Positions 19,815-58,130 of a DNA stretch of 64,000 bases are shown one piece after another. The stretch lies in assembly GCF_006345805.1 (NCBI RefSeq), contig NC_043019.1, forward strand, positions 31,557,360-31,621,359, read 5' to 3'. Each line of letters opens with the position of its first letter. Positions within the stretch are counted from its first letter, which is position 1. The translations under genes were made by a program, and so were the position numbers. The notes under the pieces were generated by a model. That model saw only the letters and a list, made by a program, of their open reading frames with translations, made no database searches and was not told the origin of the DNA. Origin of the DNA: Octopus sinensis. Its lineage: Eukaryota.

Positions 19815-20235
19815 GGAAAACGAGTGAATATATAGTGCATATGTGTATTTGTCAAAACAAAAAAAGACCATCCCTAAGCATTACAATACCTGTTTCAACA
19901 CTCAGTTTCACATCAGGAATCTTGCAAGACAAATTCATAAACGTAAGTTTTGACAATATATTCTAAATACACACCTGATTACAAAATACTACATAAATTC
20001 TAAACAGCACAACCCCAAATGTAATTAATAAAAATTCTCCATAACACCTTGCTATCACAGCTTTACTATACAATGCAGTTATCATTCAACAGAACACATC
20101 TTACCATAGAAAATTTTAACTACTTAACAGAGACCTATGCAAAGCCAAGAGAAACTCCTATGTACCACAATCTAGTGATGGCTTAGATGGCGGAAACTTC
20201 GAAGTCACTGTCAATATTATTCTCATTAAAGATGT
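19815..20235 (+). mobile_element. Possible degenerate Penelope-like 3' end (endonuclease tail followed by HHR remnant)
   Basis: Decayed coding-like stretch ending LLNRDLCKAKR, then acaat-CTAGTGA...GAAAC-TTCGAA-GTC-ACTGT. Confidence 0.4.
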
Positions 20236-21260
20236 GTGTGTGTGTGTATTGTCATTACATTTTAATACCCATATCTCTGATAGCATCTTATCAAGTACAA
20301 CAAATTCAGCATTTTCAGACTGGAACCCATAACCAGGGTATATAGCCTAGAAGAAAATGAAGACAATGAGATGAAGTGCTAAATGGGCATTTCCAATTCG
20401 AGAGATGTATGACAGTGATGTATTTAAAATAGAAGATTCTACCAGTCTTGGTTGACTATAAATCTGCATCTGTATTTACATGCTGAGACAAGGGCCTTGT
20501 TTTGGTAAGGGAGGGAGATGTGGTGATTTGCTGTTCTTGATAAGATGAATCAAGTTAAGTAAAATTACTGTCTTCCACCACATACAGGCTTATCCCTTCA
20601 GGTGTTGTGTAAACACAACCATGCTGGAGCCGCATAAATGCACCATTGCTAGTGCCACTCTGCTAAGGGGTTGGCATTAGGAAGGGTATCCAGCCATAGA
20701 AACCATGCCACAACAGACAACTAGAGATTGGACTTCCTGGAAAATTTCGAGGATTTTCTGGAAATATCCAATGATGGGACTTCCCAGAAAATTCCGAATA
20801 TAGCATCCATTTCACATATGGATACTATATTTTGCAGTCCTGTGAAGGCATGGCTTAGTGGTTAGAGTATTCAGCTCATGATCATAATGTTGTGAGTTCA
20901 ATTCCTGGCGATGTGTTGTGACCTTCAGGAAGACACTTTATTTCACGTCGCTCCTGTTCACTCACCTGGCAAAAATAAGTGGCTGCTTTATTTCAAAAGG
21001 TTGGCCTTGTCACACTCTGTGTCACACTGAGAACTATGTTACGGCTTCACATGTCTGTGGAGTGCTCAGCCACTTTCACGGGCAGGCTGTTCCATTGATC
21101 GGATCAACTGGAACCCTCATTGTCATAACCAACAGAATGCCATATTCTTCAGTCGTATGAAATGTTTAGCTGTACAACAACATAGATTTGTTTTGTGGTT
21201 TCTATTGCTTAATTTGATCAACGTAATTAACACTTCTTTGTTCTTGTGCTTTTATTTCAG

Positions 21261-21315
21261 ACCGAAAGTAGATCATCATATGGAACATGCGTCTTTACGA
21301 GCACAAGACTTTCAA
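21261..21315 (+). CDS. OTOF: Otoferlin-like ferlin, coding exon, 55 nt, phase 2->0, entry into C2B
   Basis: ttttatttcAG acceptor, CAA|GTAAGT donor; PKVDHHMEHASLRAQDFQ resembles human SKPDIKMEPSAGRPMDYQ (recalled). Confidence 0.88.
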
Positions 21316-21759
21316 GTAAGTGTGTGTTTTAACATCTAAAGAATTGACATAAATTACTTGGTGGATGATTGACTAAATTGTTCGAGTGACAGACAAATGG
21401 ATTTCAGCTCTTTGCATTCTGAGTTCAAATCCTGTCAGAGTCAACCTAGCTTTGTAACCTTTCAAGGTCAATAAAGTACCAGTAAAATATTAGGATCAGA
21501 TAAGCAACTGATTGCAAAATAGGGCTTTATGCTTCATTGGTTAGATCGATGATGATGTATGGAAGAGTTCCGATGCAACAATGAAATCATGTCTAGATAT
21601 TCTCTGCATTATATTCTGAGAACAAAACACAAAATATCTGCTGATATTTTTGGCACAGTGCTACTGCTCTACATAATCATCTTAGGCCATTTCTGTCTTA
21701 CACTCTGTGTGTTTGTGTGCAGATTGTTACATAGATGGGTAGATAGTTATTACATATGT

Positions 21760-22182
21760 AGGCATAGGAGCGGCTGTGGGGTAAGTAGCTTGCTTACCAA
21801 CCACATGGTTCCGGGTTCAGTCTCACTGTGTGGCACCTTGGGCAAGTGGTTTCTACTATAGCCTCGGCCGACCAAAGCCTGTGAGTGGATTTGGTAGACG
21901 GAAACTGAAAGAAGCCTGTCGATATATGTATATATTATATATATGTGGTGTGTGTATACATTTGTGTGTCTGTGTTTGTCCCCCCTCCCCAACATCGCTT
22001 GAAACCGATGCTGGTGTGTTTACGTCCCCATGACTTAGCAGTTTGGCAAAAGAGACCGATAGAATAAGTACTAGGCTTACCAAGAAAAAAGTTCTAGGGT
22101 TGATTTGCTCGACTAAAGGTGGTGCTCCAGCATGGCCACAGTCAAATGACTGAAACAAGTAAAAGAATAAAGGAATAAAAGA
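21760..22182 (+). mobile_element. SINE family A, full length
   Basis: Same head, body and tail as 6088-6493. Confidence 0.9.
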
Positions 22183-22485
22183 ATATGTATGTATACACAC
22201 ATATACAAAATAGTATAGGAAACTTTGTTGCAACTAGCATTAACTGGCTTAAGGATGCAAGGTCAAGGAGAAAAGTGGCTGCAAATATACCACTTGCAGT
22301 GAGCTGTAATCCTCATATTTGCAGCATCTGTGGGTTTCTTTTCTAATTGTTGGTGGGACTTAAATGTCACATTCAATATAAGCATTGTGACAAAGAAAGA
22401 ATAGGTTGTCATCTGATCTTCATACAGCGAAACCGATGAGAGAGTCCATATATGTATATATATTTGAAAGTCTATGTATATATAC

Positions 22486-22541
<56 letters not shown>

Positions 22542-22580
22542 GTATAGATCTAAATAGTACATATACGTATGTATATATGC

Positions 22581-22612
<32 letters not shown>

Positions 22613-22819
22613 ATATATTTCGTTTTTGTATTTGGTTTACCAGATTCTTATGTGAATTCCTGGTTGAAGCATATTTTATTGTGCCTGGGAAGAATCATTT
22701 TCTTTTAGTGCCTTAATTATTTTAAATAAGTAAACGAGCGGAAATGGACCGGTGAGTATGTTAAATTAATAAGGCACTAAAAGAGAATGACTATCTCTAG
22801 ACACAATAATATATATATG

Positions 22820-22864
<45 letters not shown>

Positions 22865-23308
22865 ATCGGTTGTTTTGTAAAAAGGTTGAATGTAGATTCG
22901 TCCTTTAATTTGGAGGTTTCCAATAAAGATTTCTAATGTGGATTCTTCATATTTTGCTGGTAGTTTACAGGCGTAAATTTGCAAATATGAAAATAATACT
23001 TGTATATGATGTTTGATGAATTTATGGAAAGAAATCCCATAAAACTCAACAATTTAGTTAAAAATGGAGAAGACAAGTTCTAAAAATTCTCTTACATATT
23101 AAAATTCTAGATGTGTTGCTTGCAAACATTGGAGCTTACATGGAAGTGTTATGATGTTTCTAATAAAACGTTATTTGTTTGCCTATAATTTTCCAATAAA
23201 CTTTGCTGAGTTATCCTTATTTACCATTTTTTCTTCTTTTTCTAAATTTTTCATATTGTGTAGGTAATTTATGGCCACCCTATATATATATACACGTATA
23301 TGTGTGTA

Positions 23309-23573
23309 CCAGGACTGTAGAGTCGAGATAAAAAACTTCGACTCTGACTCCTCTTTATGTAATTAAGTGATTGTGGTCTACATATCAAATAAAGCATATG
23401 CATACACTTGTACTTTGAGTCGGCCTATATGTTATAACTGACTTATATTGAAGAATAAAGACATTGTGAGTTGGAGTCAGTATAGTTTTACCAACTCCAA
23501 CTCCGACTACCCCTTAATTGTTTCTGACTCTGACACTGACTCCACGACTATGACTCTGACTTCACTGTCCTGG
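23309..23573. mobile_element. MITE with CCAGGAC...GTCCTGG termini and GACTCY subterminal repeats
   Basis: ccaggactgtagagtcg / gactctgacttcactgtcctgg; flanked by TA. Confidence 0.7.
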
Positions 23574-23833
23574 TATATACTATGAGTCCACTGCATCTTA
23601 TGGCAGAAACAGCTGTAAGCTAATGAAGTGCTTAACATAATAGTTTATTCCTTTGTTGTCTAATTTTTTTTTTATATATACGGAGAGAGGGGCGGGGTGA
23701 TTAAGATCTAAGATCTAAGATACCCAGTAATGGACAAATTGCTGTCCTTATCTTGATGCAAATATTTTACAAATTCTGTCTAAACATGTCATAACTAATT
23801 GCCAATTATTTTTAACTCTGATTTTCGTTGCAG

Positions 23834-23965
23834 GTTTGTGTGACCATCATAGAAGCTAGGCAATTAGCAGGATTGAACATGGATCCTGTTATCTGTGTGA
23901 CAGTCGGTGACCAGAAAAGATACACTAGTGTGAAAGAATCAACTAACTGTCCTTATTATAATGAG
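23834..23965 (+). CDS. OTOF: Otoferlin-like ferlin, C2B domain exon, 132 nt, phase 0->0
   Basis: ttttcgttgcAG acceptor, GAG|GTATGT donor; [44 protein letters not shown] closely matches otoferlin C2B as recalled ([44 protein letters not shown]). Confidence 0.96.
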
Positions 23966-23986
23966 GTATGTAAAAAGTCTATTTTT

Positions 23987-24017
<31 letters not shown>

Positions 24018-24210
24018 AGTGTGTGTGTATGTGTAGGTGGGTGTTATTACTCCATCATTATTTTCATCATCATGATTGTCATCATAATTATCATAATTGT
24101 TGTCATCTTCATCATCATCATCTTATTTTCTTTCATCCTTCTTCATCATCATCACCATCATCATTGTCATCATGATTTTCGTTGTCATCTTCGTCATCAT
24201 TATTGTCATT

Positions 24211-24252
<42 letters not shown>

Positions 24253-24384
24253 TTCTTCTTCTTCATCATCTTCATTGTCGTCATCATCCTCATCTTCTTC
24301 AGCATCTTCTTCTTCATCATTGTTATCATCATTGTTGTCATCATCATCATTACCACCCACTTTTCCATTATTGCTTGAGTTTCT

Positions 24385-24613
24385 TATTTCTTTATTGCCC
24401 ACAAAGGGCTAAATATAGAGGGGACAAAAAGAGACAGACAAAGGGATTAAGTCGATTATATCGACCCCAGAGCATAACCGGTACTTAATTTATCGACCCC
24501 GAAAGGATGAAAGGCAAAGTCAACCTCGGCGGAATTTTAATTCAGAACGTAATGGCAGACGAAATACCACTAAGCATTTCGCCCGACGTGCTAACATTTC
24601 TGCCAGCTCGCCA
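24385..24613 (-). mobile_element. SINE family B with 11-bp TSD
   Basis: Reverse complement of 16151-16386; TSD cttgagtttct at 24374-24384 and 24614-24624. Confidence 0.9.
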
Positions 24614-25263
24614 CTTGAGTTTCTGTCACCTTGATCTGTCACTAGCTGAAATGACCTCATCTGCACACACACTACAACTACAGGTGACAGCAATAGTTCA
24701 CTAACTATACTGGCTGGTCCTGTCCATTGACAGCTTTGTCAATGTCTGTTCACTGACTCAGCTTCTAGTGATATCTGCCAGTAGCTCAATAAATTTATTT
24801 GCCAAAATAATTCACATCCACCACACTGCATCCTATGATTTCAATGTACCCTGGCTCATGGGGTTACATACTATTTAACCCAGTTTCCTTCCTTCACATT
24901 GTATTCTTGGTCACTTTAAATTCTAGAGAAACTAAGATAACCTAAGATAAGCATAATAAGCCTATAGGCTTACATGATAAGCCTACAGACTGAATTTTGA
25001 TTATTGCATTTTTAATGACAAGTGACTGAGACCGTTGGCAATATATTGTGCTTGAGAAGACCTGACAAGCAAAGTGAGATTGTAGTCGTGGCCAATGTTG
25101 ATGTTTCATAACTGACACCCATGCCAGTGGCACGTAAACTACACCCACTACACTCTTGGAGTGGTTGGTGTTAGGAAAGGCATCCAGCTGTAGAAACCAT
25201 GCTAAATCAGATTCAAGCTAACCAGTTGTGCAGCTAACCAGTTTTCAGTCAAACCGTCCAGTC

Positions 25264-25606
25264 TGTAGGGACCTCACTTGGCCCTGCCTGGGATTTGAAA
25301 CCAAATCCACTTATTGCTTATCAAAACAAGCGGGTGGATTTGGTTTCAAATCTCAGGCAGGGCCAAGAAAAAGAGGAAGAGATAGGAAATGCTCTCTGTT
25401 ATATAGTCTATGGTCAGTAATGTAGGTCAAAGCCTAAAGAAAGGACTGACCTTTCTTTGATCAGCATAGGTCCTTGGGGGTCAAGGGCTTTCCATCAATC
25501 ATCTGATGATGAGATGCAAACAAAGGATTTCCTGCTTGTTTTGACAAGCGACAAGTAAGATGGATTTGGTTTCAAATCTCAGGCAGGGCCAAGTGAGGTC
25601 CCTACA
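25264..25606. mobile_element. MITE with TGT...ACA termini, long TIRs and probable 4-bp TSD
   Basis: TGTAGGGACCTCACTTGGCCCTGCCTG...CAGGCAGGGCCAAGTGAGGTCCCTACA; flanks agtc/agcc; interrupts an RTE-like tail. Confidence 0.75.
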
Positions 25607-25738
25607 AGCCTGTGCCAGTATGGAAAATGGACATTAAATTACAATGATGACGACGACAACAATGACAACAACAACGACGATGAGTGATTTGAAATTTAGA
25701 GCAAAACTGAATATACTGAATATCCATTGGACTATTAA

Positions 25739-25967
25739 CCCTTTTGTTACCATATTTTTATTGAGATACTCTGTGTTTCTGTGTTTCTTTCAAGTAATTT
25801 TAAATATAGCAAAGAATTTAGTAAAATAACTTAGTTATCATTAAGCTAGTGTTAGGAACTTAAATTGTGGCTAAGGTTTGGTGGAAGATTTTAATTCAAA
25901 ACTTATGAAAACAAGACATTTGTACTCGGAACCAGAGCCGGTTTCAGCCGGATTGGTAATGAAAGGT
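25739..25967. mobile_element. piggyBac-type MITE (same family as 45070-45291)
   Basis: TTAA|CCCTTTT...GAAAGGT; internal sequence is the reverse complement of the 45-kb copy. Confidence 0.8.
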
Positions 25968-27161: not shown

Positions 27162-27360
27162 ATAGGCTTCTCAGCCTTTTGGCTAAGATCAAAGTGTAGT
27201 ATTTGTTCTTATTAGCTTAATATCTGATTATTAGCTTAATATCTATTTGGGGCCATTGATATTAAACTGGTTTTTAGAATGAGGAGAAGTGTTAGGGGCT
27301 TGCTCCGCCTTTGCCACGGGTTGGCCTGGTATTGCAGTGCTTCCAGGATTCAGCCCATCT
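27162..27360 (+). pseudogene. U2: U2 snRNA copy, full length but degenerate
   Basis: GCTTCTCAGCCTTTTGGCTAAGATCAAAGTGTAGTA 5' stem and branch-site recognition GTAGTA; 3' GGGCTTGCTCC and CCTGGT-ATTGCAGT-GCTTCCAGG stem IV; altered Sm site (GGTTTTTAG); internal 17-nt duplication. Confidence 0.88.
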
Positions 27361-27613
27361 TTAGTAGGCGCAGGAGTGGCTGTGTGGTAAGTAGCTTGCT
27401 TACCTACCACATGGCTCCGGGTTCAGTCCCACTGCATGGCACCTTGATGTAATGATTGCATTATTCAATTAAATGGAGTTGCTTGAAACGATCGTACTGC
27501 ATTACCTCTGGATATCCTTGCTGCTTATTTTGATTAATCACCATATTTTGAAATTGTATGGATAATACCGTACTAAATTCTGGTACCTCAACTTAAGTAC
27601 CATATTCATCTGA

Positions 27614-27667
<54 letters not shown>

Positions 27668-28010
27668 GGTGTATGGCTTAATGACTTGGGTATTCAGCTC
27701 ATGATAGTAAGGTCATGAGTTCGTTTCCTGGTAGCACATTGTGTCCTTGAGTAAGGTTCTTTAATTTTCATTGATTCATTCCACTCAGCTGGCAAAAATG
27801 AGTTGTACCTGTAATTCAAAGGAGCCAGCCTTGTCACATTCCGTGTCATGGTGAATTTCCCTGAGAACTACTTTAAGAGTATGCGTGTCTGTGGAGTACT
27901 CAGCCACTTGCACATTTCCTGAACACAGGCTGTTCTATTGATCAGTTCAACTGAAGCACTCATTATTGTAACTGACAGAGATCCAGGCTATATTTATATA
28001 TTATATATAT

Positions 28011-28065
<55 letters not shown>

Positions 28066-28109
28066 GATATATATATATACACACACACACACACTCACAT
28101 ATATATCTG

Positions 28110-28141
<32 letters not shown>

Positions 28142-30089: not shown

Positions 30090-30140
<51 letters not shown>

Positions 30141-30591: not shown

Positions 30592-30640
<49 letters not shown>

Positions 30641-32224: not shown

Positions 32225-32598
32225 GGAAAGGTGGGAAACTTAACATTTCTCAGTAAAAGCTAGATTGGTATACAAAACTACTTTCTGTAGTTAAGAGTAA
32301 TGAAATTTCAAGTGGATATATATCTGATTTCTGCAGTGAAAGGCTTAACATATTTGAGAAATGGTATACAAATATATGTTGGCAGAATATTCTTGTCTTT
32401 TATTTTTTTATTTGCTTCAGTCATTTGACTGTGGCCATGCCAGAACACCGCCTTTAGTTGAACAAATCGCCCCCAGGACTTATTCTTTGTAAGCCTAGTA
32501 CTTATTCTATCGGACTCTTTTGCCGAACCACTAAGTTACATCGGTCGTCAAGCAATGTTTAGGGGACAAACACAGACACACAAACATATACACATACA

Positions 32599-32634
<36 letters not shown>

Positions 32635-32641
32635 TATATAT

Positions 32642-33361
32642 ATTAATAAATATGAGGGTAGCAAAACATTCTAGAAAAAATTCTCCGCTACCAGCGGTCT
32701 AGTGAGAAAGAAAAGATAGTCAAAGACTATATAATATACATTCAACAATATAAGGAATGGCCATAATAGGCCATTCGACTCACTAGAAAGAGCAGCCAAA
32801 CTCAAACCGCTAAAATAGTTGTAATTCTGAAATAGAAAGAGAAATAAAAACATTTACCCTTTCATCTCTGAACTATGCATAGTTTCGACAAACTTTAGTA
32901 AACAAATTAATTAAATTAAATTAAATTTATTTACAACTGGCGTGTCTCGTCAGCAGAGAAGCCGAGGACGAGTATATATCCACGAGGCGACAGTAAAGAA
33001 GTCTCCAGTCTATATGCTCTAAATTTTCAAAATCCACCGCCACCGCGCGGTCTTCTCAGCAGCAAATATAAACTGCTGATTTAATTTCAAAATTAGCAAA
33101 AAAATCATTAATTAATAAATATAAGGGTAGCAAAAAATTCTGCGCTACCAGTGGTCTAGTGAGAAAGAAAAGATAGTCAAAGACTATATAATATACATTC
33201 AACAATATAAGGAATGGCCATAATAGGCCATTCGACTCACTAGAAAGAGCAGACAAACTCAAACTGCTTATAGTTGTAATTCTGAAATTGAAAGAGAAAT
33301 AAAAACATTTACCCCTTTCATCTCTGAACTATGCATAGTTTCGACAAACTTTGGTAAACAA
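32642..33361 (-). mobile_element. Non-coding HHR-bearing retrozyme/Penelope-pLTR-like element, ~1.5 tandem units
   Basis: Near-identical direct repeats ~32642-32905 and ~33110-33361 (offset 456 nt at the HHR site); inserted in the (TA)n tract of a SINE whose halves lie at ~32400-32640 and ~33365-33533. Confidence 0.72.
32865..32959 (-). ncRNA. Type I hammerhead ribozyme motif (complete)
   Basis: Minus strand: TCTCTG-CTGACGA-GACA...TGTC-GAAA-CTA-TGCA-TAG-T-T-CAGAGA; stem I 6 bp, stem II 4 bp with long AT-rich loop, stem III with palindromic TGCA loop, GUU cleavage triplet. Confidence 0.8.
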
Positions 33362-34001: not shown

Positions 34002-34454
34002 GTAAGTACAGAGAATTTTCTTTTTATTCTTTCTCTCTTTGCACTTTACACACACATACACACACATATATATACATATACATACATATATGTGGCTCTA
34101 TGTATATATATATATATATTATATATATATATATATACACACACACACAGAAAATATTGGGATTTAGTTCACAAGTGATCTTAATGACTAGGTATGCAAG
34201 GTAAGTGCTGTAATGGATTATGCTTCTTTTTTCTTCTATTTCCTCATCTCTTTATTCCTTTACTATTGTCTTCTATGTCGTTAATCCATTAATCTAAACC
34301 CTTTTCACTTACCCTATTTGGCTCTGATGACAGAATATCCCCCACGCTGGGATATCTCAGAAGCAGCTATAAGACTTTGAATGTTTTTCCAATAATAATA
34401 ATGTACACAACTTGAGATGTTTGCCTTGCCTTAACGTTTGTTGTCATCTTTATC

Positions 34455-36659: not shown

Positions 36660-36944
36660 AAAAAATACCTCTTTGATCTTGGCCACCAGCTCAACCTTAG
36701 TGTTGCAGGCTGAGTAGTTGGTGTCATTTTTAACCACACGCCCACACATAGTAATCCATGATATTACTAGCAGGGGAATTAAGAGACCAGAAATTGGGAC
36801 TGGTGAAGTCCTAGAAATTCTCTGACAGCTGCTTCTGACTCTTTCTGGAGGTATGACAAGGAGGCAAATCCTGCAACCACACATATGGCCTTCCAGCAGC
36901 AACACTCGCCAGCCATGGATTGACCAGAATCTCCAGTTGTTTCT
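36660..36944 (-). mobile_element. Tc1/mariner transposase fragment
   Basis: Remnant DYYVW and VVKNDTN...KVELVAKIKEVF; truncated at the long palindrome. Confidence 0.65.
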
Positions 36945-37306
36945 TGGCTGATGCTCGATACTTTGTGAATTCTGTAAAGGCTGTAAAAATTTACTTGGAT
37001 ACCACGGAAACCAGGTCCCCACTCCATCCCACCCAAATTGTGGTGATCTTTAAATATATCTCCAGTGGGGGTAAGATAATGTTACTCTAGATCTTTGAAC
37101 AGAGCCTTAAGTCCAGTTCAGACAGCTGTCTGAACTGGACTTAAGGCTCTGTTCAAAGATCTAGAGTAACATTATCTTACCCCCACTGGAGATATATTTA
37201 AAGATCACCACAATTTGGGTGGGATGGAGTGGGGACCTGGTTTCCGTGGTATCCAAGTAAATTTTTACAGCCTTTACAGAATTCACAAAGTATCGAGCAT
37301 CAGCCA
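36945..37306. repeat. 362-bp palindrome with no spacer
   Basis: 181-bp arms centred at 37125/37126 (gacag|ctgtc); no mismatch seen by eye. Confidence 0.92.
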
Positions 37307-37478
37307 TGATGTCAGCATCTTGATACCCAGAACAAATTACCATCATACACGTAACCCTTTTCCAATACTCAGATAGTTTCCAATCCTCCATGTCGATTAC
37401 ATATATTTTCAACTATAATTTTAACCTTTGTACTCTCCAACACCATTGACTGTTCAACAATACATCAGTCTGTTCCCC
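37070..37478 (-). pseudogene. Degenerate antisense coding-like segment, partly duplicated at ~35165-35361
   Basis: Minus frame CIVEQSMVLESTKVKIIVENICNRHGGLETI*VLEKGYVYDGNLFWVSRC*HHG*CSILCEFCKGCKNLLGYHG...; GG|GTAAG donor near 37178; the sister copy keeps a ttttttcAG acceptor; product unidentified. Confidence 0.4.
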
Positions 37479-39636: not shown

Positions 39637-42230
39637 TATGTTTGACTTTTGCTTTATATTTGTACAAGTTGGCTCCAAGTCTCACCCAGAGACCTCAAGA
39701 GACAACAGGGTGGAAGTTCATGTTGTTGTTATGCCTAGTGTGCCATATATTTGGGGGTGGGGATGTTGTACTAATGAATGTCTAAAAAAAAAAAAAATTT
39801 TTTTTTTTTTTTTTTTAACCGAAAATTATGGTTGTTTTAAACCTTGGGGTTACATAGAGAGTATTTTGCGTAGGATATGAGCAGTTCCCATGAGCACTAT
39901 CTTTTGAACTTCTGCCATTTTTGGGTTTCCTGGTATCTGAGTTAGGTAGCTATCAGCCCCTTTTGCTATCATTCCCAGGGCACCTATGACAACAGGTATT
40001 GTTTTAGTCTTCAGCTTCCACATTTTGCTGATTTCTATTTCAAGATCTTTATATTTGCTCAGTTTTTGGTAGGTCTTGACAGATACGTTTATATCGATTG
40101 GGACAGTCATATCAATGAGGAGGCATGTTCTTTCTGTTTGAAGTCTTTCAATATGATGTCTGGCCTATTTGCATCTATCTTCCTGTCAGTTTGAATGGTG
40201 AAGTTCCAGAGGAGTGAGATGTGGTCATTTTCAAGCACTGGGGGGTTTGTGTTCCCACCAGTTTTTTTCATGGGCAAATCCAGGTTTTACAGATTACCCA
40301 GTGAATATATTGTGCAGCTCTATCGTGCCTGTTGAGATACTCTGTAGGCGCTAGAAGACTGCACTTGGAGACCACATGGTCAATGGTTTCATTTTGTTGC
40401 TTGCATACACGACACGTTGGACTGCTTCTGATCTTTAATATGTTGGCCTGGTAGTTTCTTGTGGTAGGCATTGATCTTGAGCTGCTATGATAAACCCCTC
40501 TGTTTCAGATTTTAAGCCAGAGGCCATTAGCCATTGATGGGTCAGGGCTTTGTCGATATCTGCATTATTCGCTCTCTTTGGGTATTTGCCATAGAGAGGT
40601 TTTTCTTGCCATTTATTATTCAGAATATCTAAGGCCGCAGTTTTGGCACGGGTTTTCATGCGCCTAGCTTTTTCTGTGCTTGTTTCTTGTATGTCTATCT
40701 CTAATTCCGAATTGGTTGTATTCGGAATTCACTTAGATATTCCTTTGCCTGTTTTGTGACTGAGTATGATGCTTTCTTGTTTTCATGTTTTGAGACAAGT
40801 TTTAACATCCAGTCCTCAGAGTTTTTCAGGTAGGTGTCTAGGCCAATTGTAGCAATCTTCATTGTTATTGCCAGTTGCAAAAGACCACGGCCTCCTCTTT
40901 TCTTGGCAGATAGAGTCGTTCTGTATCTGCCTTAGGGTGGTGCATTCTATGCATTGTCAACAGTTTCCTTATTTTTCTGTCGAGCTGACATATTTCAGTA
41001 ATTGACCAGTTAACAATATTGAAACTGTAAGTCACGACTGGTATAGCTAATGCATTGATTCTTCGATCCTGTTTCTTGCATTCAGCTCTGTCTTGAGTAT
41101 TGCTCTCACTCTTCGATAGCATTCTCTCCTGATCCTTTCCTTCATCTCTGAATGCCTTATTCCGTTCCCTTCAATTACCCTAGGTACTTGTAGCTCTCCG
41201 CTGGGTCTAGTTCTTTTATGACATTCTGTTGGTCAAGGTTAACGTTAGATGTTTCTGTCATTTTTCCTTTGATAAAGGTAGCCTTTGCACATTTATCGAG
41301 GCCGAATTGCATTCTGATGTCGTCACTGAATTGTTTGACTATCGCTAGTAAGCCCTTGAGTTGTTGATCATTTTTTGCAAAAAGCTTTAAATCATCCATG
41401 TAAACGAGATGATTTATATTTTTATCAAACATTTTATACCCGTACTGCGCGTCATTGAGCAGCTTTGAGAGAGGTATTAAGGATAAACAAAAGAGGAGTG
41501 GTGACAGTGAGTCACCCTGGAAAATGCCACACGAAATTTTTACATCACCAGCATTTAGGGATTCACTGTCACTGTTCAGAGTTAGTGTGGTTCTCCATGA
41601 TCTCATACTTACAGTCAAGAAGTTTCGCAGAGTTGGTGCTATCTTATACATTTCAAGGCATTTCCTAATCCAGCTATGTGGTAGGCTATCAAAAGCCTTT
41701 TTATAGTCTATCCAGGCTATTGATAAGTTTTTGTGTCGTTTGTGACAATCTTCTAAGATCATCTTATTGATGAGTAGTTGTCTTTACAGCCGTAGGATCC
41801 ACGTTTACATCCTTTCTGTTCATTAGGGAATATGCTGCTGTCTGTTAAAAAACTATAGGTATATTCCGTCAGGACAGATGTTAGTGTTTTGTACATAGTT
41901 GTTAAGCAGGTTATGGGTCTATAGTTTTTTGGTTCATTTGTTTCTTCACTTTTTGGAAGCAGGAATGTTAACCCATTAACTAGCCAAGGAGGCATCCTAC
42001 TAGGGTGTTGCAAAACATCATTGTACAGTTCTGTTAGCAGTTCATGGCTCTCTGGGAAGGCATTCAGCCAGAAGTTAGGAATTTTATCCTTTCCTGGAGA
42101 CTTCCATTTGCTTGACCTCCTGAGAGCAGATCTTATATCTTCTACCTTGACACCCTCCCACTTTTGCTCTTCTAAGGGGTCCAGTTCTGTAGATATTCTG
42201 TCAATCCAGGGGGCCTTTTCGTTGTGTGTT
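39636..42230 (-). mobile_element. 5'-truncated R4/Dong-clade non-LTR retrotransposon (RT + CCHC zinc knuckle + RLE endonuclease)
   Basis: ORF pieces: KSPGKDKIPNFWL, NYRPITCL, GIFQGDSLSPLLF, YMDDLKLF, YKYLG, CRVCKQQNETIDHVVSKC, NRPDII...IDMTVP, KYKDL...IPVVIGALG; several frameshifts; flanked by (TTA)n on both sides. Confidence 0.92.
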
Positions 42231-42317
42231 TTATTATTATTATTATTATTATCATTATTATTATTATTATTATCATTATTATTATTATTATTATTACTGT
42301 TGTTATTATTTTTAGTA

Positions 42318-42696
42318 GTGCAGTAGTGACTGTGTGGTAAGAAGCTTGCTTCCCTACCACATGGTTCTGGGTTCAGTCCCACTGCATGGAGTATTTTCTA
42401 CTATAGCCTCCAAAGCCTTGTGAGTGGATTAGGTAGACGGAAACTGACAGAAGCCTGCTGTATATATGTGTGTGGGTGTGTGTGTGTGTATTTGTGTATG
42501 TGTCTGTGTTTCTCCTCCCAACATTGCTTGACAACCAATGTTGATGTGTTTCCATCCCCGTAACTTAACAGTTTGGCAAAAGCAACCAATAGAATAAGTA
42601 CTAGGTTTACAAAGAATAAGTCCTGGGGTCGATTTGTTCGTCTAAGGGCGGTGTTCCAGTATGGCCACAGCCAAATGACTGAAACAAGTAGAAGAA

Positions 42697-42729: not shown

Positions 42730-43134
42730 CCAAGCCAAAAGAATACATACACACACATATACATATACATTTGTGTGTGTATGTATGTATACATTTATAC
42801 ATGTGTGTGTGTGTATATATACACACACACACATGCATACACATATATGCATACTCCTTAACCGGCCAAAACTTCAAAGTCACTGTCAATAATATTCATG
42901 TTTATGAATAACAAATTTATATTCTATAAAAGTATAGAGTAACCCATCAGGATAATGTAAAATTGTTTTTATCATAACTGAACATAAAAACACTTATGTA
43001 ATACATACATACATACACACACACACAAATATATATATATACATACACACACACAAATTTATATATATATACATACATACACACAAATTTATATATATAA
43101 TATACATACACACATGCAAATTTATATATATATA

Positions 43135-47813: not shown

Positions 47814-47851
<38 letters not shown>

Positions 47852-49110: not shown

Positions 49111-49237
49111 AGGAATAGTGAGAAGAGAAATGAAGAGAAACTGGATGAATTGATGGAAGGATGGATACATGTATTTATATCATACATACCTGTATACTAT
49201 ATAAAATATAGACATAAATATTCATAAACATATGCAT

Positions 49238-49270
<33 letters not shown>

Positions 49271-49289
49271 TATATATATAGATATTTAA

Positions 49290-49357
49290 ACTACCTGATG
49301 AATGACTGCGACTCAAAAATTTGAAGAAGTTAGCAGGCATGAAACGATCGTAGTGTG
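49290..49357 (+). ncRNA. Minimal type I hammerhead ribozyme motif (Penelope-type)
   Basis: CTGATGA-ATGACTGC...GCAGGCAT-GAAA-C-GATC-G-TA-GTGT; intact core, 7/8-bp stem II, palindromic GATC loop, GUA site; stem I weak. Confidence 0.68.
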
Positions 49358-49545
49358 ATATTAATTATATTTTTTTAATAATTTAGTTATATATTTAAAT
49401 AATATAAATTAAATAATCTTATGTATTGGCTTAAGTTTTTCATTGTTTGATTTGCCTAATAGTGGTTTTGTCTCTAATTTAATATAATATATATATATAT
49501 ATATATATATAAACCCAAAATAAGCAACAAGGATATCCAAATGTA

Positions 49546-50058
49546 ATGCAGTACGATCGTTTCATGTGACTCCATTTAATTAAACAAATATCAATGGAAA
49601 TAGTAGTTGTGATACCTGTGTCGGTGGCACATAAAAAGCACCATCCGAACGTGGCCGTTGCCAGTGCCGCCTCGACTGGCTTCTGTGCCGGTGGCACATA
49701 AAAAGCACCATCCGAACGTGGCCGATGCCAGCACCGCTTGTGCTGGCTTCCGTGCCGGTGGCACGTTAAAAGCACCAACCGATCATGGTCGATGCCAGAC
49801 CCCCCCTGGCACCTGTGCAGGTGGCACATAAAAAGCACCCACTACACTCGCGGAGTGGTTGGCGTTAGGAAGGGCATCCAGCTGTAGAAACACTGCCAGA
49901 TCAGACTGGAGCCTGGTGCAGCCCTGGCTTCCCAGACTCCAGTCGAACCGTCCAACCCATGCTGGCGCGGAAAGCAGACTTTAAACGATGATGATGATGA
50001 TGATGATGAATGCAAGTATTACATCAGTTTTAAGATGTAGAGCAATCTTCAGCTGCAT
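49546..50058 (-). ncRNA. Hammerhead ribozyme motif split by a later retroposon insertion
   Basis: Minus strand ATGCAG-CTGAAGA (50058-50046) ... GAAAC-GATC-GTA-CTGCAT (49563-49546); perfect 6-bp stem I; ~420-bp RTE-like tail inserted in the stem II region. Confidence 0.65.
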
Positions 50059-51999
50059 ATAAATATAGAATTTAGTTAAATTGAAAAGATTCATTTTTAT
50101 ACTTATTCCATTTACCAACATCATTAATTACTACCATGTTTCTGTTGATGAAACGTGTTTCTCTGAGAAACTGGCCCTTGTGAGTTGACACGACTCGAGA
50201 AGGTAGCTTTATCTTTACCTGTACCAAGTCTGTTTACATGTGACTGAGGACCACTACAACTTCAAACATTCAGAGCTGGCTCACCCTCCCCCAGGCGAAT
50301 GCCAGCACAAGTACAAATACGCGGAAACCACATAACTGGCTTTTTGAGTGCTAGGACACAAAACGGCACTTAACTTACTTCATTATTTTTATCAGTTTCA
50401 ATCTTTAACAGTAGAGAAGAGACACAATGGCCAAGAGAGTCCTAACTATATGAAATGAGGAGATAATACCTATATAAATATGCTGCAAAAATCTAGACGT
50501 GTCCACAACAATAATTCCTGCAACAAGATGAGAGGGTCACAGCTGTAATGCAGTTGTTTATAGATTTATTTGATCAAAACTGACTTCAAGATAAACAACT
50601 GCATTAATCATTTTCCCCCAGTAAGTCCATCTCTGCCAAATTCTCTTCTAGTGTTTTTCCCTGCAGACGTTGACTTAGAGTTGCCTAAGTTGAACATTAA
50701 CCTGAGAGTGGCTACAAAGGCCTTGGGCACTCTCCCTCTTCAAAGAATTTCATACAGAAAGAAAATTGCTTTGATTCCTTGACCTGACACAGTTTTATTG
50801 ATAGAATAACTTTGTACAGAACTAGTTTGCTGTTATCACCAAAAATAGATGTAACCTTAGCTTAATCGATGATTTATCATCTTATCCTCTTAGTAAAAAA
50901 GACATTTTTATGAGCCATTTTTATAAGCCGAGTTTTTGAAAGGTCAAGAAGACTCAAACGGCTTCTTGACCTTCTAAAAAATAGCAGCCAAATCTCCTCA
51001 AACTACACTTTTATTTTCTTAAAAACTGACACATTCAGTAAAGATTGGCGGAATGATTAACACGTCAAACAAAAATCTTTTGTGGAATTTAGCTCCAACC
51101 CTTTACAGTCTAAGATCAAATCCAGCTAAGATCAACTTCACCTGTTATACTTTTTTTTATCAATGAAATAGAGTGCAATCAAATACTGAGATTGATTTAA
51201 TTGACAGCCCCTCTTCTGATTGGGAAGTGGGGGATGTTGGCCTGTTTGCCTAGCCAGTAGGGTGGTATCATTTGAATGCTAAAACAATGCAAAAAAACAC
51301 ATTGTGACCAGTGATGTGTAACAACATCAGACAGCCTGGTTGGTCAGATGATCAAGTGATCTCATAGTAGTGTCTATGAAGTAAGAGTCTAGCACTAAGA
51401 ATCTCAAACAAACCTACTTGGTGCTGCTTCTGCAGTGAGGATGGATGAGGGTGCAATCTTCAACATCCACAGCATTTTGGTGATGAGCAGAAAGTTCAGA
51501 TAACTAACTGGCACTCTGTCAGTTATGATGACATGGCTTCCTGTTGATCCAATCAATGGAGCAGTCTGCTTGTGAAATTAACGTACAAGTGGCTGAGTAC
51601 TCCACAGGCATGCGTACCATTAAAGCAGTTGTCAGAGAGGTTCAGCACAACACATTGAATGCAGTAAGGCTGGCCCTTTGAAATACAGGTACTACTTAAT
51701 TTTGCCAGCTGAGCAGACTAGAGCAACAGGAAATGAAATGCCTTGCTCAAGGACACAATTCACCACCAGAACTTATTTTATCAAGCCTGAAAGGATTTAA
51801 GGCAAAGTTGACCTCAGTGGAATTTGAACTCAGAATGCAAAGCTGGACTAAATGTCACTAACCATTTTGTTTGACATGCTAACAATTCTGCCAGCATCCC
51901 ACATTAACTGAAGAATATATTCTACAGTAGCACTGAAAAAGCAAAATATATATGTGTGTGTGTGTGTTGTGTGTGTGTGTGTGTGTGTGTGTTTGTGTG

Positions 52000-52310
52000 T
52001 GAAGGCACATGGCTCAGTGGTTGGAGCGTCGGGCTCACAATCATGAGGTAGTGAGTTCAATTACTGAACCGGGTTGTGTTGTGTTTTTGAGCAAGACACT
52101 TTATTTCATGTTGCTCCAGTTCACTCATCTGTAGAAATGAGTTGCAACATCCTTTCTTTGGATAACATCGGTGGTATGGAGCAGGGAGGCTGGTATGCAT
52201 GGAAAACTGCTGGTCTCCCATAAAAGACAACCTTGCCTGGACTTGTGCCTCAGAGGGTAACTTTCGAGGTGCAATCCCATGGTCATTCAGGACTAAAGGG
52301 GGTCTTTACC
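52000..52310 (+). mobile_element. tRNA-derived SINE family E
   Basis: gaaggcacatggctcagtggttggagc...gagttcaatt...gagcaagacactttatttca; relatives at ~18345-18510, 20843-21150, 27666-27990, 51500-51770(-). Confidence 0.8.
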
Positions 52311-52534
52311 ATCATCATCATCATTTAACATCCACCTTCCATGCTGGCATGGGTTGGATGGTTTGACTGAGGATTGGCAACCCAGAAGGCTGTATCAGGC
52401 TCCAATCTGATCTGGCTAAGTTTCTATAGCTGGATGCCCTTCCTAATGCCAACCACTCCAAGAGTGTAGTAGGTGCTTTTTACGTGTCACTGGCACAGAT
52501 GCCAGTCAGGTGGCACTGGCATCAGCATGACAAT

Positions 52535-53452
52535 GATTTCACATGACTCAATGTGCATACCTTCCTTCCTTCCTGTGACACTTGTGAAGACCTGTGAAGA
52601 CCTGTTGAGGCAAGTGAAAATCAAATCAAATCAAATCAAAATGGATGAACATCAATGGAATTTGTATCTTTGTGGTACCAGTGCCGGTGGCACACAAGAA
52701 AACCATCCGAACGTGGCCGTCCCATACCGCATCGACTGGCCTCCGTGCTGTGGGCACTTACAAACACCATCCGATCGTGGCCGTTCGCCAGCCTCATCTG
52801 GCACCTGTGTCGGTGGCACATAAAAACACCATCCGAAGACCCGGCAAGACTAGTCAGGCCATAACCGTGGCCCCTACCTGGGACGTAGTCAGTCCACCTG
52901 TGCATACCTTCCTTCTTGTGACACTTGTGAAGACCTGTTGAGGCAAGTGAAAATCAAATCAAAACAAATCAAAATAGATGAACATCAAGGAATTTGTATC
53001 TTTGGGTACCAGTCCGGTGGCACACAAGAAAATCATCCGAACGTGGCCGTAGCCAGTACCGCATAGACTGGCCTCCGTGCTTTGGGGACGTAACAAACAC
53101 CATCCGATCGTGGCCGTCCGCCAGCCTCATCTGGCACCTGTGTCGGTGGCACATAAAAACAACCATCCGAGCGTGGCCGTCTGCCAGCCTCGTCTGGCAC
53201 CTGTGTCGGTGGCACATAAAAACACCATCCGAGCGTGGCCGTTCGCCAGCCTCGTCTGGCACCTGTGTCGGTGGCACATAAAATCACCCACTACACTCTC
53301 GGAGTGGTTGGCGTTAGGAAGGGCATCCAGCTGTAGAAACACTGCCAGATCTGACTGGCCTGGTGCAGCCTTCGGGCTCCCCAGACCCCAGTTGAACCGT
53401 CCAACCCATGCTAGCATGGAAAACGGACGCTAAATGATGATGATGATGATGA
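52535..53452 (+). mobile_element. RTE-like retroposon 3' region with ~60-bp internal tandem units and (GAT)n tail
   Basis: Repeated ...tcggtggcacataaaaacaccatccga.cgtggccg... units, a ~350-bp duplication, ending ttaggaagggcatccagctgtagaaac...aaatgatgatgat; shorter copies at ~11995-12295, 14785-15130, 19450-19712, 25020-25645, 31780-32100(-), 45300-46030, 49590-50008, 52310-52520(-), 58690-58920, 63000-63170(-). Confidence 0.75.
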
Positions 53453-53476
53453 TATATATATATATATATATATATA

Positions 53477-55051
53477 CAGTTGCGGCCAAAATGTAGAGAA
53501 CGGCATTGTTTTCGCCAGAAAAGTAGGTATAAGTTTTTATCAAAGTTGTTTTATATTCTATAATTTTCACAAACAATAAATACAATATTAATTGTTATTG
53601 TCTGAGATTTTGGTGTAATTTGAGAGGATAATACAAAAGTTATGGATGATTTAGTGATTTACTGCAAAACCCATGGCGGCCAAAATGATCAGAGCGGTTG
53701 AAAAAATAACAAAATAATCAAAAATGACAGAGAATACTGGAATTATTTAATATTTAGTGTGAAGCCCTTTAGCTTCAATCACACTTTGACATCTTTGACT
53801 GCATGAGGAAATTAAATTTTCAATTTCTTGCTAGGTGATCTTATTCCATTCTTCCTGAAGGGCATTCCATAATTGCTCGGTTGTTTTAGGATTTCTGGCT
53901 TTCGAACATTCTCCTAGAATATTCCACACATTTTCAATAGGATTGAGATCTGGGCTTTGAGCAGGCCAATCCATAATAATAACCTTTTCAGCCTTGAGGA
54001 AGTTCATGACCACCTTTGCCTTGTGACATGGGGCATTGTCCTGCATGAATATGGGTGGTCGCTTAGTTGAATTTCTCAGCACAGGCAAGACATGATCTTT
54101 TACAAGGTGTTTATAAACTCCTGCATTTACCTTTCTGTGTAATCACACCAAAGAGCCCACACCATCTCCATGACACTTCTTCCACCGAATTTAACACTAG
54201 TCTTAAGGCATTTAGGCGACAATTTTTCACCTACTTTTCAACAAACGTACCTTTTCCCATCTGAGCCAAATAACATAATCTTAGATTCATCACTGAAATG
54301 CACATTTGCCATTTTTCTTGAGACCACAACACATGTTCGGTTGCAAAGGTAAGATGACAGTTTTTATTTTTGGAGCTGATCAGTGGCTTCACTGCAGGTG
54401 ATCTTGCTTGTCGGTTATATTCAACTAAATGATGAGACACAGTTTTTCGAGATAACATTTTCTTCAGTACAATGCTCATTTCCCAAGAAACAGCAGCAGC
54501 AGTTTTAAATCTGTCCTTTTTAACCAACTTTTTCATAGCGCGATCTTCTCTCTTGGTCATTTTTCTTGGCCTACCTGTAGACTTTCTTGCTTCACACGAA
54601 CCACAATCATCGAAGACCTTAAGAATACCGTGAACAACACTTTTTGACTTGTAACATCTTTGCAATAGACCCAATACTAAATTATCCTTCTTTCGAAGCT
54701 TAATAATCTGCGACGAATTGGTAACGGAGTAAGTGGCATTATATTAACAAAGTACACTGCAGATATTCTTACTAATGTTTAGTAACGAACCATCACGTAA
54801 ACAAATTCAAACATTAGAGTTCGCCGCTTAAATATACTAAAACACAGAGTAAAAGCAATTGTTCTGATCATTTTGGCCGCCATGGGTTTTGCAGTAAATC
54901 ACTAAATCATCCATAACTTTTGTATTATCGTTTCAAATTACACCAAAATCTCAGACAATGAAAATTAATATCGTATTTATTGTCTGTGAAAAAACTTATA
55001 CCTACTTTTCTAGCGAAAACAATGCCATTCTGAACATTTTGGCCGTATCTG
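53477..55051 (-). mobile_element. Tc1-family DNA transposon (DD34E), near full length, ~200-bp TIRs
   Basis: TA|CAGTTGCGGCCAAAATG...CATTTTGGCCGTATCTG; GGCCAAAATG repeated at both ends of each TIR; minus-strand transposase ~54739-53747 with GRPRK, SDESK, FMQDNAPCH-34aa-SPDLNPIENVW; frameshifts and stops. Confidence 0.93.
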
Positions 55052-55743
55052 TGTATATAAATATATATATATATATATAATATATATAGGTATAGGTATG
55101 GCTGTGTAGTTAAGAAGCTAGCTTTGTAGTTTCAGGATCAGTCTCATTGTGTGGCATCTTGGGTAAGCCTCTTCTACTATAGCACTTGGCTGATCAATCA
55201 ATACCTTATGAGTGAATTTGGTAGATGGAAACTGTGTGGAAGCCCATCTTATATATAGGTATATATGTGTGTGTCTCCCCACCACCACTTGAAAACCAAT
55301 GCGTGTGTGTGTGTGTTTATAGAAAGAAAGTGAAAAAGAGAGAGAGAGAAGAGTAACATGCAGACACACAAACACACATGCATGTACATGTGCACACACA
55401 TGCACATAAGTGCATATGCATTTGTCAGTAAGTAATGTTGTGCAATGATATTTGGGCAGATGCATGCATGTGTAGCTGTAAGATCAGATATAGGCTAATA
55501 CAGTTTATATACTCAATAGTTTCTCAAAACAGTTTATAAAGTATTTGTCAACCTCCAGTAATAGTTGTTTCATGTTAGACAATTGAGTTAATAGAAAACT
55601 ATTACATACATACATACATACATACCTACATATATATATTGATTTATTTATATTTATATAATCATATAATGTTATATATATATAATGTTTCTTATTGCAC
55701 AGTCTCACGGAAGATAGTCTATATATGTACATACGGGTGTATG

Positions 55744-55777
<34 letters not shown>

Positions 55778-56074
55778 CATATGTGTGTGTGTGTTTATGT
55801 AAATATGTATCTATGTATATATATGTATGTATTTATATATGTGTGTATGAGTGTGTGTGTGTGTATATATATATGTGTGTGTGTGTGTGCATGTATGCAT
55901 GTATGTATCTACCTATCTATATATATATAGACACACATACACATATATGTATATCTGTGAATATATATATAAATATATATATATATATATTTGTGTGTCT
56001 GTGTGTATATGTGTATGTATACATACATATATATATATACACCTATATATATACACACATATATACATACACAC

Positions 56075-56112
<38 letters not shown>

Positions 56113-56120
56113 GTATGTAT

Positions 56121-56163
<43 letters not shown>

Positions 56164-58130
56164 CATACATATATACACATACATATATATATATGTATGT
56201 ATGTGTATATAAACATATATATAACTTCAAAATCATTTAGTCTAAGCAGTGCATTCAAGCTGTAACATATAGCTTGTTTATACACCGATGTAAAGTTTAG
56301 GCAAAGTGTTTAGTGATTAATGGAAGTTCACATGCGATGCAAACCTGTTTGTCTCTGAAGCTGTGTCGCCCAGTATTTGTATGTCTATTGATGAAACATA
56401 CATCAGAGAGAGGCATCTCTGTGTAGCTGGTGTAAAATGTCATATAATAAGACTATAATATTATGGAAGTGGTAGCTTGGTCGGAACAAAAACATCTGAC
56501 AGTATTAAATAAACGAATCAACTAACTAACATAGAGATACACACACCTATATGTGTATGTGTCTGTGCGTATTACATATATATGTATATTATATATGTGT
56601 GTATATATATGTGTGTGTGTGTGTATAAATATATATATATTCTCTTTTATTCTTTTACTTGTTTCAGTCATTTGACTGTGGCCATGCTGCGGCACCACAC
56701 TTAGTTGAACAAATCAACTCACCGTACTTATTCTTTGCAAGCCTAGTACTTATTCTATTGATCTCTTTTGCCGACATTCTTAGATTATTAAAAATCGATA
56801 ATAGGACCTTTCCAATGGATCCTTCTATCTACTACATATTACTAATATTTTATTTTAGCAACCCAAGGGAAATAACCCATACCACCTGCAGATTTAGCGA
56901 AGTGATCAATATTTGATTCTCATCATCAACCGACGTAATTCTGCATTTCACTACTCACAGTTTTGAACTGCTAAACATTATTATTGCACTTCCTTAATTT
57001 GAATCTTAAACATTAAAGACTTCATTCATCCATTTCTATACATACATACTTTTCTGAATGCCCATTACTCCGATAATTCTGCATTTTTACAGTTACACTT
57101 TTTCCATGACAATAGAGAAATTTTTATTCCACAACGTATTTGAAGTAGCTTCATGCAGGTATAGTGTGGATTCAATCCTCAATTGCCAAATTTCACTTAA
57201 CACTTCAACAGCTCTTTTCTGATGGAAAAAGAATAATTTTTCTGTGAAGGACAGCAGTTATACATTTCCCAAATGCTTTTGCTAAACAGAATAATGTCTT
57301 TGCCTCTCACCGACCTCCGACAATCTTTCTCTCTAACCTCCGGAAACCTCTCTCACCAACCTCTAACAATCTCTCCCACCTCCAGCTGACAGTTTTTTGT
57401 ACTTTTTTGTGATGGAAAATACACCTTTTGTGGCAGTTATAACAAAATTGCTTTCTTATATCAGAGTAATAAGGCATTTCAATAGAACATCTTTACCCCC
57501 AGGAATTACCGGGTACACCAGTTAGTGTATACGTATGTATACATTTATATGTATGAGTAACACGGTCTGTAGTAAACACAGTTTTCTATATTTTGTCACA
57601 GCCTGCTTCCTTCCTTTATAAGTGTGTCTGTTTATATATCTATATATATGTATGTGTAAACACATGTGTGTCTGTAATTCTATTTTCTATGTATCTTTCT
57701 GAATAAACATACACAAACACATATACACTCACTCAAATATATAGATATATTTTGCACACACACAGACACACACACACAAACATTCACATTCCTCCTTTTT
57801 ACATGAACATGCATATTCTCACACAGAGTTGAAGCACTGTTTGATTTTTGTTTCACCGTTGACTTTTCACCATCCCACTTCCATCAGTGGATCACCCCTT
57901 CCTTTCTCATTCATATGTTGTGATGGAGAAACACACAAGAGTATTATTATAGTAGATTATCGTAGTAGAAGATACACGACACTCTCTTTGCCACTTCCTC
58001 TCTCTCATTGCTATTACTTTCTCTCACTCCCTCTCAATCATGGCCATTATTCTCATTACTTCTCCTTCGTTGAATTTCTATTTTCTCTCCTCTCACTTCA
58101 CTCCTACTGTGTGATTTTGGACAAATATAT

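What the first reader, a model, noticed from the sequence alone, without database searches (positions are those of the whole stretch)
20167..56410. Several HHR families whose stem III loops are always self-complementary but differ in sequence
Seen after GAAA: C-GATC-G-TA (27485, 49341, 49563-), C-AGCT-G-TA (23606; decayed at 34360), CT-TCGA-AG-TC (20193; decayed at ~42860), CTA-TGCA-TAG-TT (32886-, 33342-), and C-ATAC-A-TC (56393), which would be C-GTAC-G-TC before CpG decay. Known: minimal Penelope-type HHRs with palindromic stem III loops are thought to cleave as dimers. Inferred: up to five distinct palindromes in one 64-kb window suggest a diversified radiation of ribozyme elements, with the loop possibly acting as a family-specific dimerisation code.
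Basis: partly seen in the sequence, partly recalled or inferred. Interest (0 to 1): 0.75.

Follow-up and report, generated by a model that had tools for sequence, protein, structure and literature searches.

The report
Penelope hammerheads with drifting palindromic loops
These are mostly worn copies of a known miniature hammerhead-ribozyme motif of Penelope-like jumping genes, present tens of thousands of times in this genome; its third helix is usually a palindrome, likely because two copies must pair to cut, but different families reuse the same palindrome, so it is likely not a dedicated family code.

Summary
All ten motifs are present, but only two are complete hammerheads (49341+, 32886-); the rest are halves or decayed, and 56393 has no relatives. 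They belong to about 60,000 type I minimal hammerheads in this genome, about 1.4 per 64 kb, so the window is ordinary. Three other families lie beside Poseidon or Neptune Penelope ORFs; several form ORF-less 350-560-nt tandem units. Loops are strongly palindromic (17-22 of 30 unselected hits versus 6% chance), and the wobble-compatible loop GATT outnumbers its mirror mutant AATC 2,167 to 345, which points to RNA-level pairing. 'Always' fails (CTC-AA-GAG family). The 'family code' is weak: 8 of 13 palindromes are shared by separate clades, GATC by two families in this window, and loop pairs change no faster than stem I or II pairs (0.30, 0.30, 0.39 per position). Palindromic loops, several families per genome and sister families with swapped loops are already in Cervera and de la Pena 2014. 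This scan noted the same kind of motif before, in this and other genomes. Cleavage is untested.

The parts
49292..49355 (+). Complete type I minimal hammerhead: stem I 3 bp, CTGATGA core at 49295, 39-nt stem II, GAAA at 49341, C-GATC-G, TA; inside a family copy spanning about 49177-49511
   Evidence: (83-90% to L195, L202, L212)
32865..32959 (-). Complete hammerhead: stem I 6 bp, CTGACGA core at 32953, 60-nt stem II, GAAA at 32886, CTATGCATAG, TT (family copies have TC); in a copy of a ~528-nt unit (about 32586-33293)
   Evidence: (L124, L137, L087)
33111..33361 (-). Second, partial copy of the TATGCATA family; starts inside stem II, no core; partial tandem with the 32886 copy
27444..27664 (+). 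3' half of a second GATC family (long stem II, stem I GCAG/CTGC); starts inside stem II, GAAA at 27485, no core
   Evidence: L140 intact copy; 86% to L170
49482..49587 (-). 3' half of the same second GATC family, GAAA at 49563, no core
   Evidence: 92% to L140
20167..20232 (+). Decayed copy of the CT-TCGA-AG-TC family; core damaged, GAAA at 20193
   Evidence: 91% over 56 nt to L249
42857..43099 (+). Decayed copy of the same TTCGAA family; AAAA for GAAA at 42868, loop CTTCAAAG, no core
   Evidence: 75% over 246 nt to L046
23579..23674 (+). Decayed C-AGCT-G-TA copy, GAAA at 23606, no intact core
   Evidence: 78% over 96 nt to a copy in L081
34320..34375 (+). Decayed AGCT-family hammerhead: CTGATGA core, GGGATAT-type stem II, GAAG for GAAA, loop CAGCTA
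   Evidence: weak matches to L126, L209, L210
56352..56407 (+). Possible old hammerhead remnant (CTGAAGC, GAAA-CATACA-TC, 3-bp stem I); no family found, status unresolved

Best explanation
These motifs are copies, mostly decayed, of type I minimal hammerheads of Penelope-like retroelements and their likely non-autonomous short derivatives; stem III is palindromic likely because two identical copies, predicted to be tandem neighbours in one transcript, pair into a double hammerhead. In that fold each copy supplies the core, stem II and the 5' strand of stem I, and the partner supplies the cleavage triplet and the 3' strand of stem I, so both stem I and the palindrome must match. Selection would then keep self-complementarity but not a particular sequence, and the palindrome drifts between lineages by compensatory double changes, G.U intermediates and symmetric indels. 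Any failure of different families to cross-pair is a by-product of divergence in stem I plus stem III. Shown: the motifs, copy number, palindrome enrichment, wobble bias, sharing and swapping of loops, PLE ORFs beside three other families, tandem units. Inferred: dimer formation, cleavage, mobilisation of the window's families by PLE proteins, drift rather than selection.
For: 60,095 strict-core C-N4-G matches versus 3,248 reversed-pattern controls. First 30 unselected hits: 20, 22 and 17 perfect palindromes, plus 5, 2 and 3 with G.U, against 6% and 14% by chance (copies are not independent, and three loci are shared by two sets). GATT 2,167 versus AATC 345, mirror-image mutations on DNA of which only GATT pairs as RNA; GATT is the majority loop of at least two homogeneous subfamilies. 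Within-clade swaps: TCGA/TCGG/CCGG/TGCA/CTAG; GTAC/GGCC; AATT/GATC/AAATTT/GAATTT; ACGT/ATAT. Poseidon-type RT+GIY-YIG ORF followed by a CG-loop hammerhead; Neptune-type ORF followed 0.7-1.1 kb downstream by the TCGG/TCAG clade in two loci; a second Neptune family with a CG-loop motif. Tandem ORF-less units of about 350-560 nt and inverted pairs. Double hammerhead predicted more stable than two monomers: -53.7 vs -37.0 and -24.2 vs -9.4 kcal/mol. Extra WC states per position within clades: stem III 12/40, stem I 19/63, stem II 27/69.
Against: No cleavage was tested. None of the window's own families was tied to a PLE ORF: no PLE protein hit in the window, and only a weak Neptune-like zinc-linker peptide 1.3 kb upstream of one AGCT copy. 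Copies examined span the predicted cut site, with 3' ends 4 to over 300 nt beyond it (loci were chosen for an intact motif, so this is biased), so cutting need not precede copying. The 32886 family has a 4-bp monomer stem III close to its MFE and may not need a partner. The rate comparison is small (16 groups), uses hand-picked representatives, ignores loop-length changes and counts states, not events on a tree. Within clades, several sister subfamilies keep cross-compatible stem I but have non-matching loops, which a selected code would also give.
Confidence: 0.8

Rival explanations
1. The loop is a selected self/non-self code: sister subfamilies switch palindromes to avoid heterodimers, for example trans-cleavage by abundant non-autonomous RNAs.
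For: 13 of 16 possible perfect 4-nt loops are in use and one clade holds four. Five within-clade pairs keep stem I cross-pairing of 3 bp or more on both sides but have loops that do not fully pair (ATAT/ACGT, TCGA/TGCA, TGCA/TCGG, GGCC/GTAC, AATT/GATC). The window's four confirmed loops are predicted orthogonal.
Against: Loop pairs change at the same rate as stem I (0.30 vs 0.30) and below stem II (0.39). 8 of 13 loops are shared by separate clades, and many sister subfamilies keep the same loop (TATGCATA, GTAC, AGCT, ATAT, TCGA). Several swaps follow CpG-decay or wobble paths that stay cross-compatible (GATC/GATT/AATT; TCGA/TCGG/CCGG). Tandem copies allow pairing in cis.
Confidence: 0.1
2. 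The palindromic structure is kept as a binding or folding signal for the element's dimeric protein, and self-cleavage is incidental or protein-assisted.
For: Copies span the cut site (biased). Frangieh et al. 2024 (PMC11167929, passages) report for a Poseidon element that cleavage needs the protein, is dispensable for insertion in vitro, and that no RNA-seq reads end at the cut site.
Against: The catalytic core and NUH triplet are kept across dozens of lineages, and the loop sequence itself is free to vary, which fits base pairing rather than sequence recognition.
Confidence: 0.08
3. The palindromes are DNA-level or chance features (binding sites, CpG-decay artefacts).
For: Some pattern hits are false: CTA-GAAG-TAG hits lack stem I and lie in what reads as LINE RT coding sequence (peptide motif recalled). 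Double CpG decay converts one palindrome into another (GATC to AATT, ACGT to ATAT).
Against: 12- to 23-fold excess over reversed-pattern controls; stem I and II covary; 6.3-fold strand asymmetry in favour of G.U; transversion swaps such as TCGA/TGCA and GTAC/GGCC.
Confidence: 0.02

Closest known systems
Minimal and short-helix-III hammerheads of metazoan Penelope-like elements (Cervera and de la Pena 2014, PMC4209133; read main text parts 1-2 of 4, supplement parts 1-2 of 3)
   Same: Type I topology, CUGANGA and GAAA boxes, short stem I, palindromic helix III/loop 3, many consensus families per genome, mostly solo copies, inverted pairs, dimer model. Their Fig. S3 already lists sister Aedes aegypti families with UA-CGCG-UA and UA-GGCC-UA; Fig. 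S5 shows 450-bp tandem repeats in D. willistoni.
   Different: Copy number here (about 60,000 in one loop class) exceeds the up to 9,000 they report per genome; many families have 40-70-nt stem II; 6-10-nt palindromes dominate my searches (shorter classes were not counted); no cephalopod in the part of their alignment I read.
Small hammerhead variants of Penelope-like retrotransposons that cleave as dimers (Lunse, Weinberg, Breaker 2017, PMC5785218; not held, seen only as title and as cited in PMC6765202 and PMC6466107 passages)
   Same: Short palindromic stem III, dimer cleavage, association with PLEs.
   Different: Cannot say whether it tabulates loops per family or tests heterodimers; text and supplements unseen.
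Non-LTR retrozymes (PMC7229834, passages; bioRxiv 10.64898/2026.07.22.740005, parts 1-2 of 5)
   Same: ORF-less tandem units of a few hundred bases with one type I hammerhead each, as monomers, dimers and multimers; proposed PLE derivatives; axolotl HHR_Amex1 has one base pair plus a palindromic tetraloop.
   Different: Those in PMC7229834 mostly carry canonical loop 1-loop 2 contacts and are shown as circular RNAs; neither was tested here. Copies here often form PLE-style inverted pairs.
Double hammerheads of newt satellite 2 and ASBVd; Aedes repeat hammerheads (PMC3088659 Fig. S8 legend, passages)
   Same: Palindromic stem/loop III completing a long intermolecular helix.
   Different: Different host elements.

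Membership tests
PLE-type minimal hammerhead (type I) | CUGANGA and GAAA boxes, NUH triplet, type I order closed by stem I | tested here: met
   2 of 10 window motifs complete; intact family copies found for the GATC, TTCGAA, TATGCATA and AGCT types; not for 56393
PLE-type minimal hammerhead (type I) | Short stem III with palindromic loop able to form a double hammerhead | tested here: met
   exception family CTC-AA-GAG
PLE-type minimal hammerhead (type I) | Covarying stems I and II | tested here: met
   several WC states per position within clades
PLE-type minimal hammerhead (type I) | Located in the pLTR next to an RT + GIY-YIG ORF | tested here: inconclusive
   met for three other families of the genome; not shown for the window's families
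PLE-type minimal hammerhead (type I) | Partial tandem and inverted insertion structures | tested here: met
   partial tandem at 32886/33342
PLE-type minimal hammerhead (type I) | Self-cleavage as a dimer | not testable with these tools
   only folding energies
Non-LTR retrozyme | ORF-less tandem units, one hammerhead per unit | tested here: met
   528-nt trimer of the window's TATGCATA family (L124), 505-nt array with 16 detected motifs (L123), 558-nt and 400-nt units
Non-LTR retrozyme | Canonical loop 1-loop 2 tertiary contact | not tested
   none
Non-LTR retrozyme | Expressed as unit-length circular RNA | not testable with these tools
   no raw-read RNA run available
Family-specific dimerisation code (proposed) | One loop per family | tested here: not met
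   8 of 13 loops in two or more clades; GATC in two window families
Family-specific dimerisation code (proposed) | Loop diversifies faster than other paired regions | tested here: not met
   0.30 vs 0.30 and 0.39 extra states per position; small sample

The most novel reading that the evidence does not exclude
Among co-active sister subfamilies whose stem I still cross-pairs, palindrome switches are selected as an incompatibility code that protects an element's RNA from trans-cleavage by relatives or by its non-autonomous parasites: an RNA-level self/non-self system between animal retroelements, with most of the 4-nt palindrome alphabet in use in one genome.
Probability: 0.1. Interest if true: 0.7.

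Novelty: new member of a known kind. Interest (0 to 1): 0.27.

Why it matters
As it stands this extends a known motif to a genome with a very large census and gives a clean natural record of compensatory evolution in a self-pairing helix, including amplified G.U intermediates. That supports the dimer model from sequence alone and supplies natural matched and mismatched pairs for heterodimer assays. It would matter more if loop switches proved to be selected, which my test does not suggest.

Tried and rejected
Rfam scan: no hammerhead family in the 150 rows shown. Repeat finders were swamped by microsatellites. Family for 56393: none by DNA search or pattern. CTA-GAAG-TAG hits rejected as hammerheads (no stem I). 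The CATG hammerhead next to a Neptune EN in L218 is not that element's own: none of the 29 other copies examined carried it. Pfam found nothing in the two short PLE peptides. Expression: no RNA holder listed; contigs of three guessed-RNA runs and one unlabelled run cover the 558-nt GTAC unit but cannot show ends, strand or cleavage; not used as evidence. Lunse 2017 could not be read. Five paper searches gave no paper on heterodimer specificity or on a cephalopod hammerhead census; unseen supplements and the unread Lunse paper may hold either.
Full report
Observation. All ten motifs are in the window at the given places, one shifted by 8 nt. Seven perfect half-motifs occur against 0.61 expected from 200 shuffles. 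Only 49341(+) and 32886(-) have an intact core with three stems. 27485, 33342 and 49563 are 3' halves; 20193, 23606, 34360 and 42868 are decayed. 56393 matched nothing but itself, and a pattern for its supposed GTAC family gave 0 hits, so the fifth palindrome is unproven.

Genome context. The window lies in a 2.72-Gb animal genome; the repeats resemble those I recall from cephalopods, which I did not test. Strict-core patterns give 19,727 (control 1,529) and 40,368 (control 1,719) matches for C-N4-G loops with short and long stem II, 1,205 (121) for CT-N4-AG and 998 (156) for CT-N6-AG with long stem II. The classes may overlap a little and include false hits such as LINE coding sequence. About 1.4 C-N4-G motifs are expected per 64 kb; the window has one. 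It is an ordinary sample of this genome.

Carrier elements. An old Poseidon-type family (RT, thumb, GIY-YIG; homologues carry PF00078 and PF26215) ends in a hammerhead with a 2-nt CG palindrome. A Neptune-type ORF with the CxxxxCxxC linker is followed 0.7-1.1 kb downstream by the TCGG/TCAG clade in two loci. A second Neptune family carries a CG-loop motif in 4 of 33 loci examined. Many other families are ORF-less units of about 350-560 nt, as solos, tandems and inverted pairs; the window's TATGCATA family occurs as a 528-nt trimer (L124), and 32886/33342 is a partial tandem. No PLE protein hit lies in the window, and I did not tie its families to an ORF. Their assignment rests on the motif and the insertion pattern described for PLEs in PMC8557442 (passages).

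Are loops palindromic? In the first 30 unselected hits are perfect palindromes and 5, 2 and 3 more pair with G.U; chance is 6% and 14%. Copies of a family are not independent, but 13 of the 16 possible perfect loops appear among 33 clade-by-loop units (60 of the loci were hand-picked as family representatives; mismatched loops were left out of this count). GATT and AATC are mirror mutations of GATC on double-stranded DNA, but only GATT self-pairs as RNA; the genome holds 2,167 and 345 in the long-stem class. The listed GATT hits are dominated by homogeneous subfamilies, the AATC hits are scattered. This favours RNA pairing during the element's life cycle. One family breaks the rule with CTC-AA-GAG.

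Mechanism. For both complete window motifs the double hammerhead is predicted more stable than two monomers, by 17 and 15 kcal/mol; for 49341 the monomer hammerhead is 8 kcal/mol above the MFE, while 32886 is within 1. In the dimer, stem I is also formed between partners. Dimer cleavage is taken from the literature (PMC4209133; reviews), not shown here. Copies span the cut site (biased sample; prompted by earlier notes), in line with unprocessed RNA being the template for a Poseidon element (PMC11167929).

Is it a code? I clustered 187 motifs by about 220 nt of flank plus the motif. 'Separate clades' means no BLAST link at 55 bits; deep common ancestry is possible. Eight of 13 perfect loops occur in two or more clades (a ninth, CCGG, was one clade split in two). 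Of 507 between-clade pairs, 46 have fully pairable stem III, and only 4 of these have 3 bp or more of cross stem I on either side, 2 being that split clade. So stem I separates families that share a loop, as for the two GATC families in the window. Within clades loops switch (TCGA/TCGG/CCGG/TGCA/CTAG; GTAC/GGCC; AATT/GATC/AAATTT; ACGT/ATAT), and five sister pairs keep compatible stem I with non-matching loops: there the loop would discriminate. But extra WC states per position are 12/40 for stem III, 19/63 for stem I and 27/69 for stem II over 16 groups (groups under three sequences and loop-length changes not counted; two singleton clades merged by eye). There is no sign of diversifying selection, though the test is coarse.

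Comparison with what is known. [quoted passage not shown] S3 has Aedes sister families with CGCG and GGCC loops. PMC3088659 Fig. S8 tabulates palindromic loops III (legend). Retrozyme papers describe tandem ORF-less units and their PLE origin. Lunse 2017 was not available. Searches found no heterodimer test. This scan has noted the same kind of motif in this and other genomes; those notes are not evidence.

Verdict. Real, known kind; new members in very large number. The palindrome is explained by homodimer symmetry; its identity most likely drifts. A selected code is not excluded (about 0.1). Interest 0.27.

Noticed in passing
window 23834-23968 (+): Exon-like peptide matching otoferlin C2 domain (E 4e-22 to PDB 9qe2); the motifs probably lie in introns of an otoferlin-like gene.
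   Followed up: partly
window 36942-37309: Near-perfect inverted duplication, two 184-nt arms, 99% complementary, no spacer; could be an assembly artefact or a recent fold-back in a Tc1/mariner-like remnant.
   Followed up: no
window 27163-27363 (+): U2 snRNA copy, 135 bits, with several substitutions; likely a pseudogene.
   Followed up: no
window 27444, 33361, 49587, 42857, 23579: Five window copies begin to match their families within or near stem II, 11-41 nt before GAAA; 5' truncation may cluster at the hammerhead hairpin.
   Followed up: partly
L034, L037, L053, L057, L058, L060, L257: Recurrent family with CTC-AA-GAG stem III, a non-palindromic centre; would give tandem A.A mismatches in a dimer or a 2-nt loop in a monomer.
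   Followed up: partly
L289:2104-4515 (+): 804-aa open Neptune-type RT + GIY-YIG frame; the EN query had 16,860 first-look candidates in the genome, top 150 at 92-98% identity.
   Followed up: partly
L123, L131, L241: Some copies have CCGATGA in place of the CTGATGA core (4 of 16 motifs detected in the L123 array; both in an L241 tandem).
   Followed up: no
L123, L124, L228, L243 just 3' of the hammerhead: GGTAA/GTAAG-like words followed by T-rich tracts right after stem I in several unrelated units; may be the 5' splice site of a pLTR intron (recalled PLE feature).
   Followed up: no
window 41178-42397 (-), 54234-54743 (-), 12469-12540 (+): RT fragment (RVT_1), Tc3-type transposase fragment and a tRNA-like sequence.
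   Followed up: no
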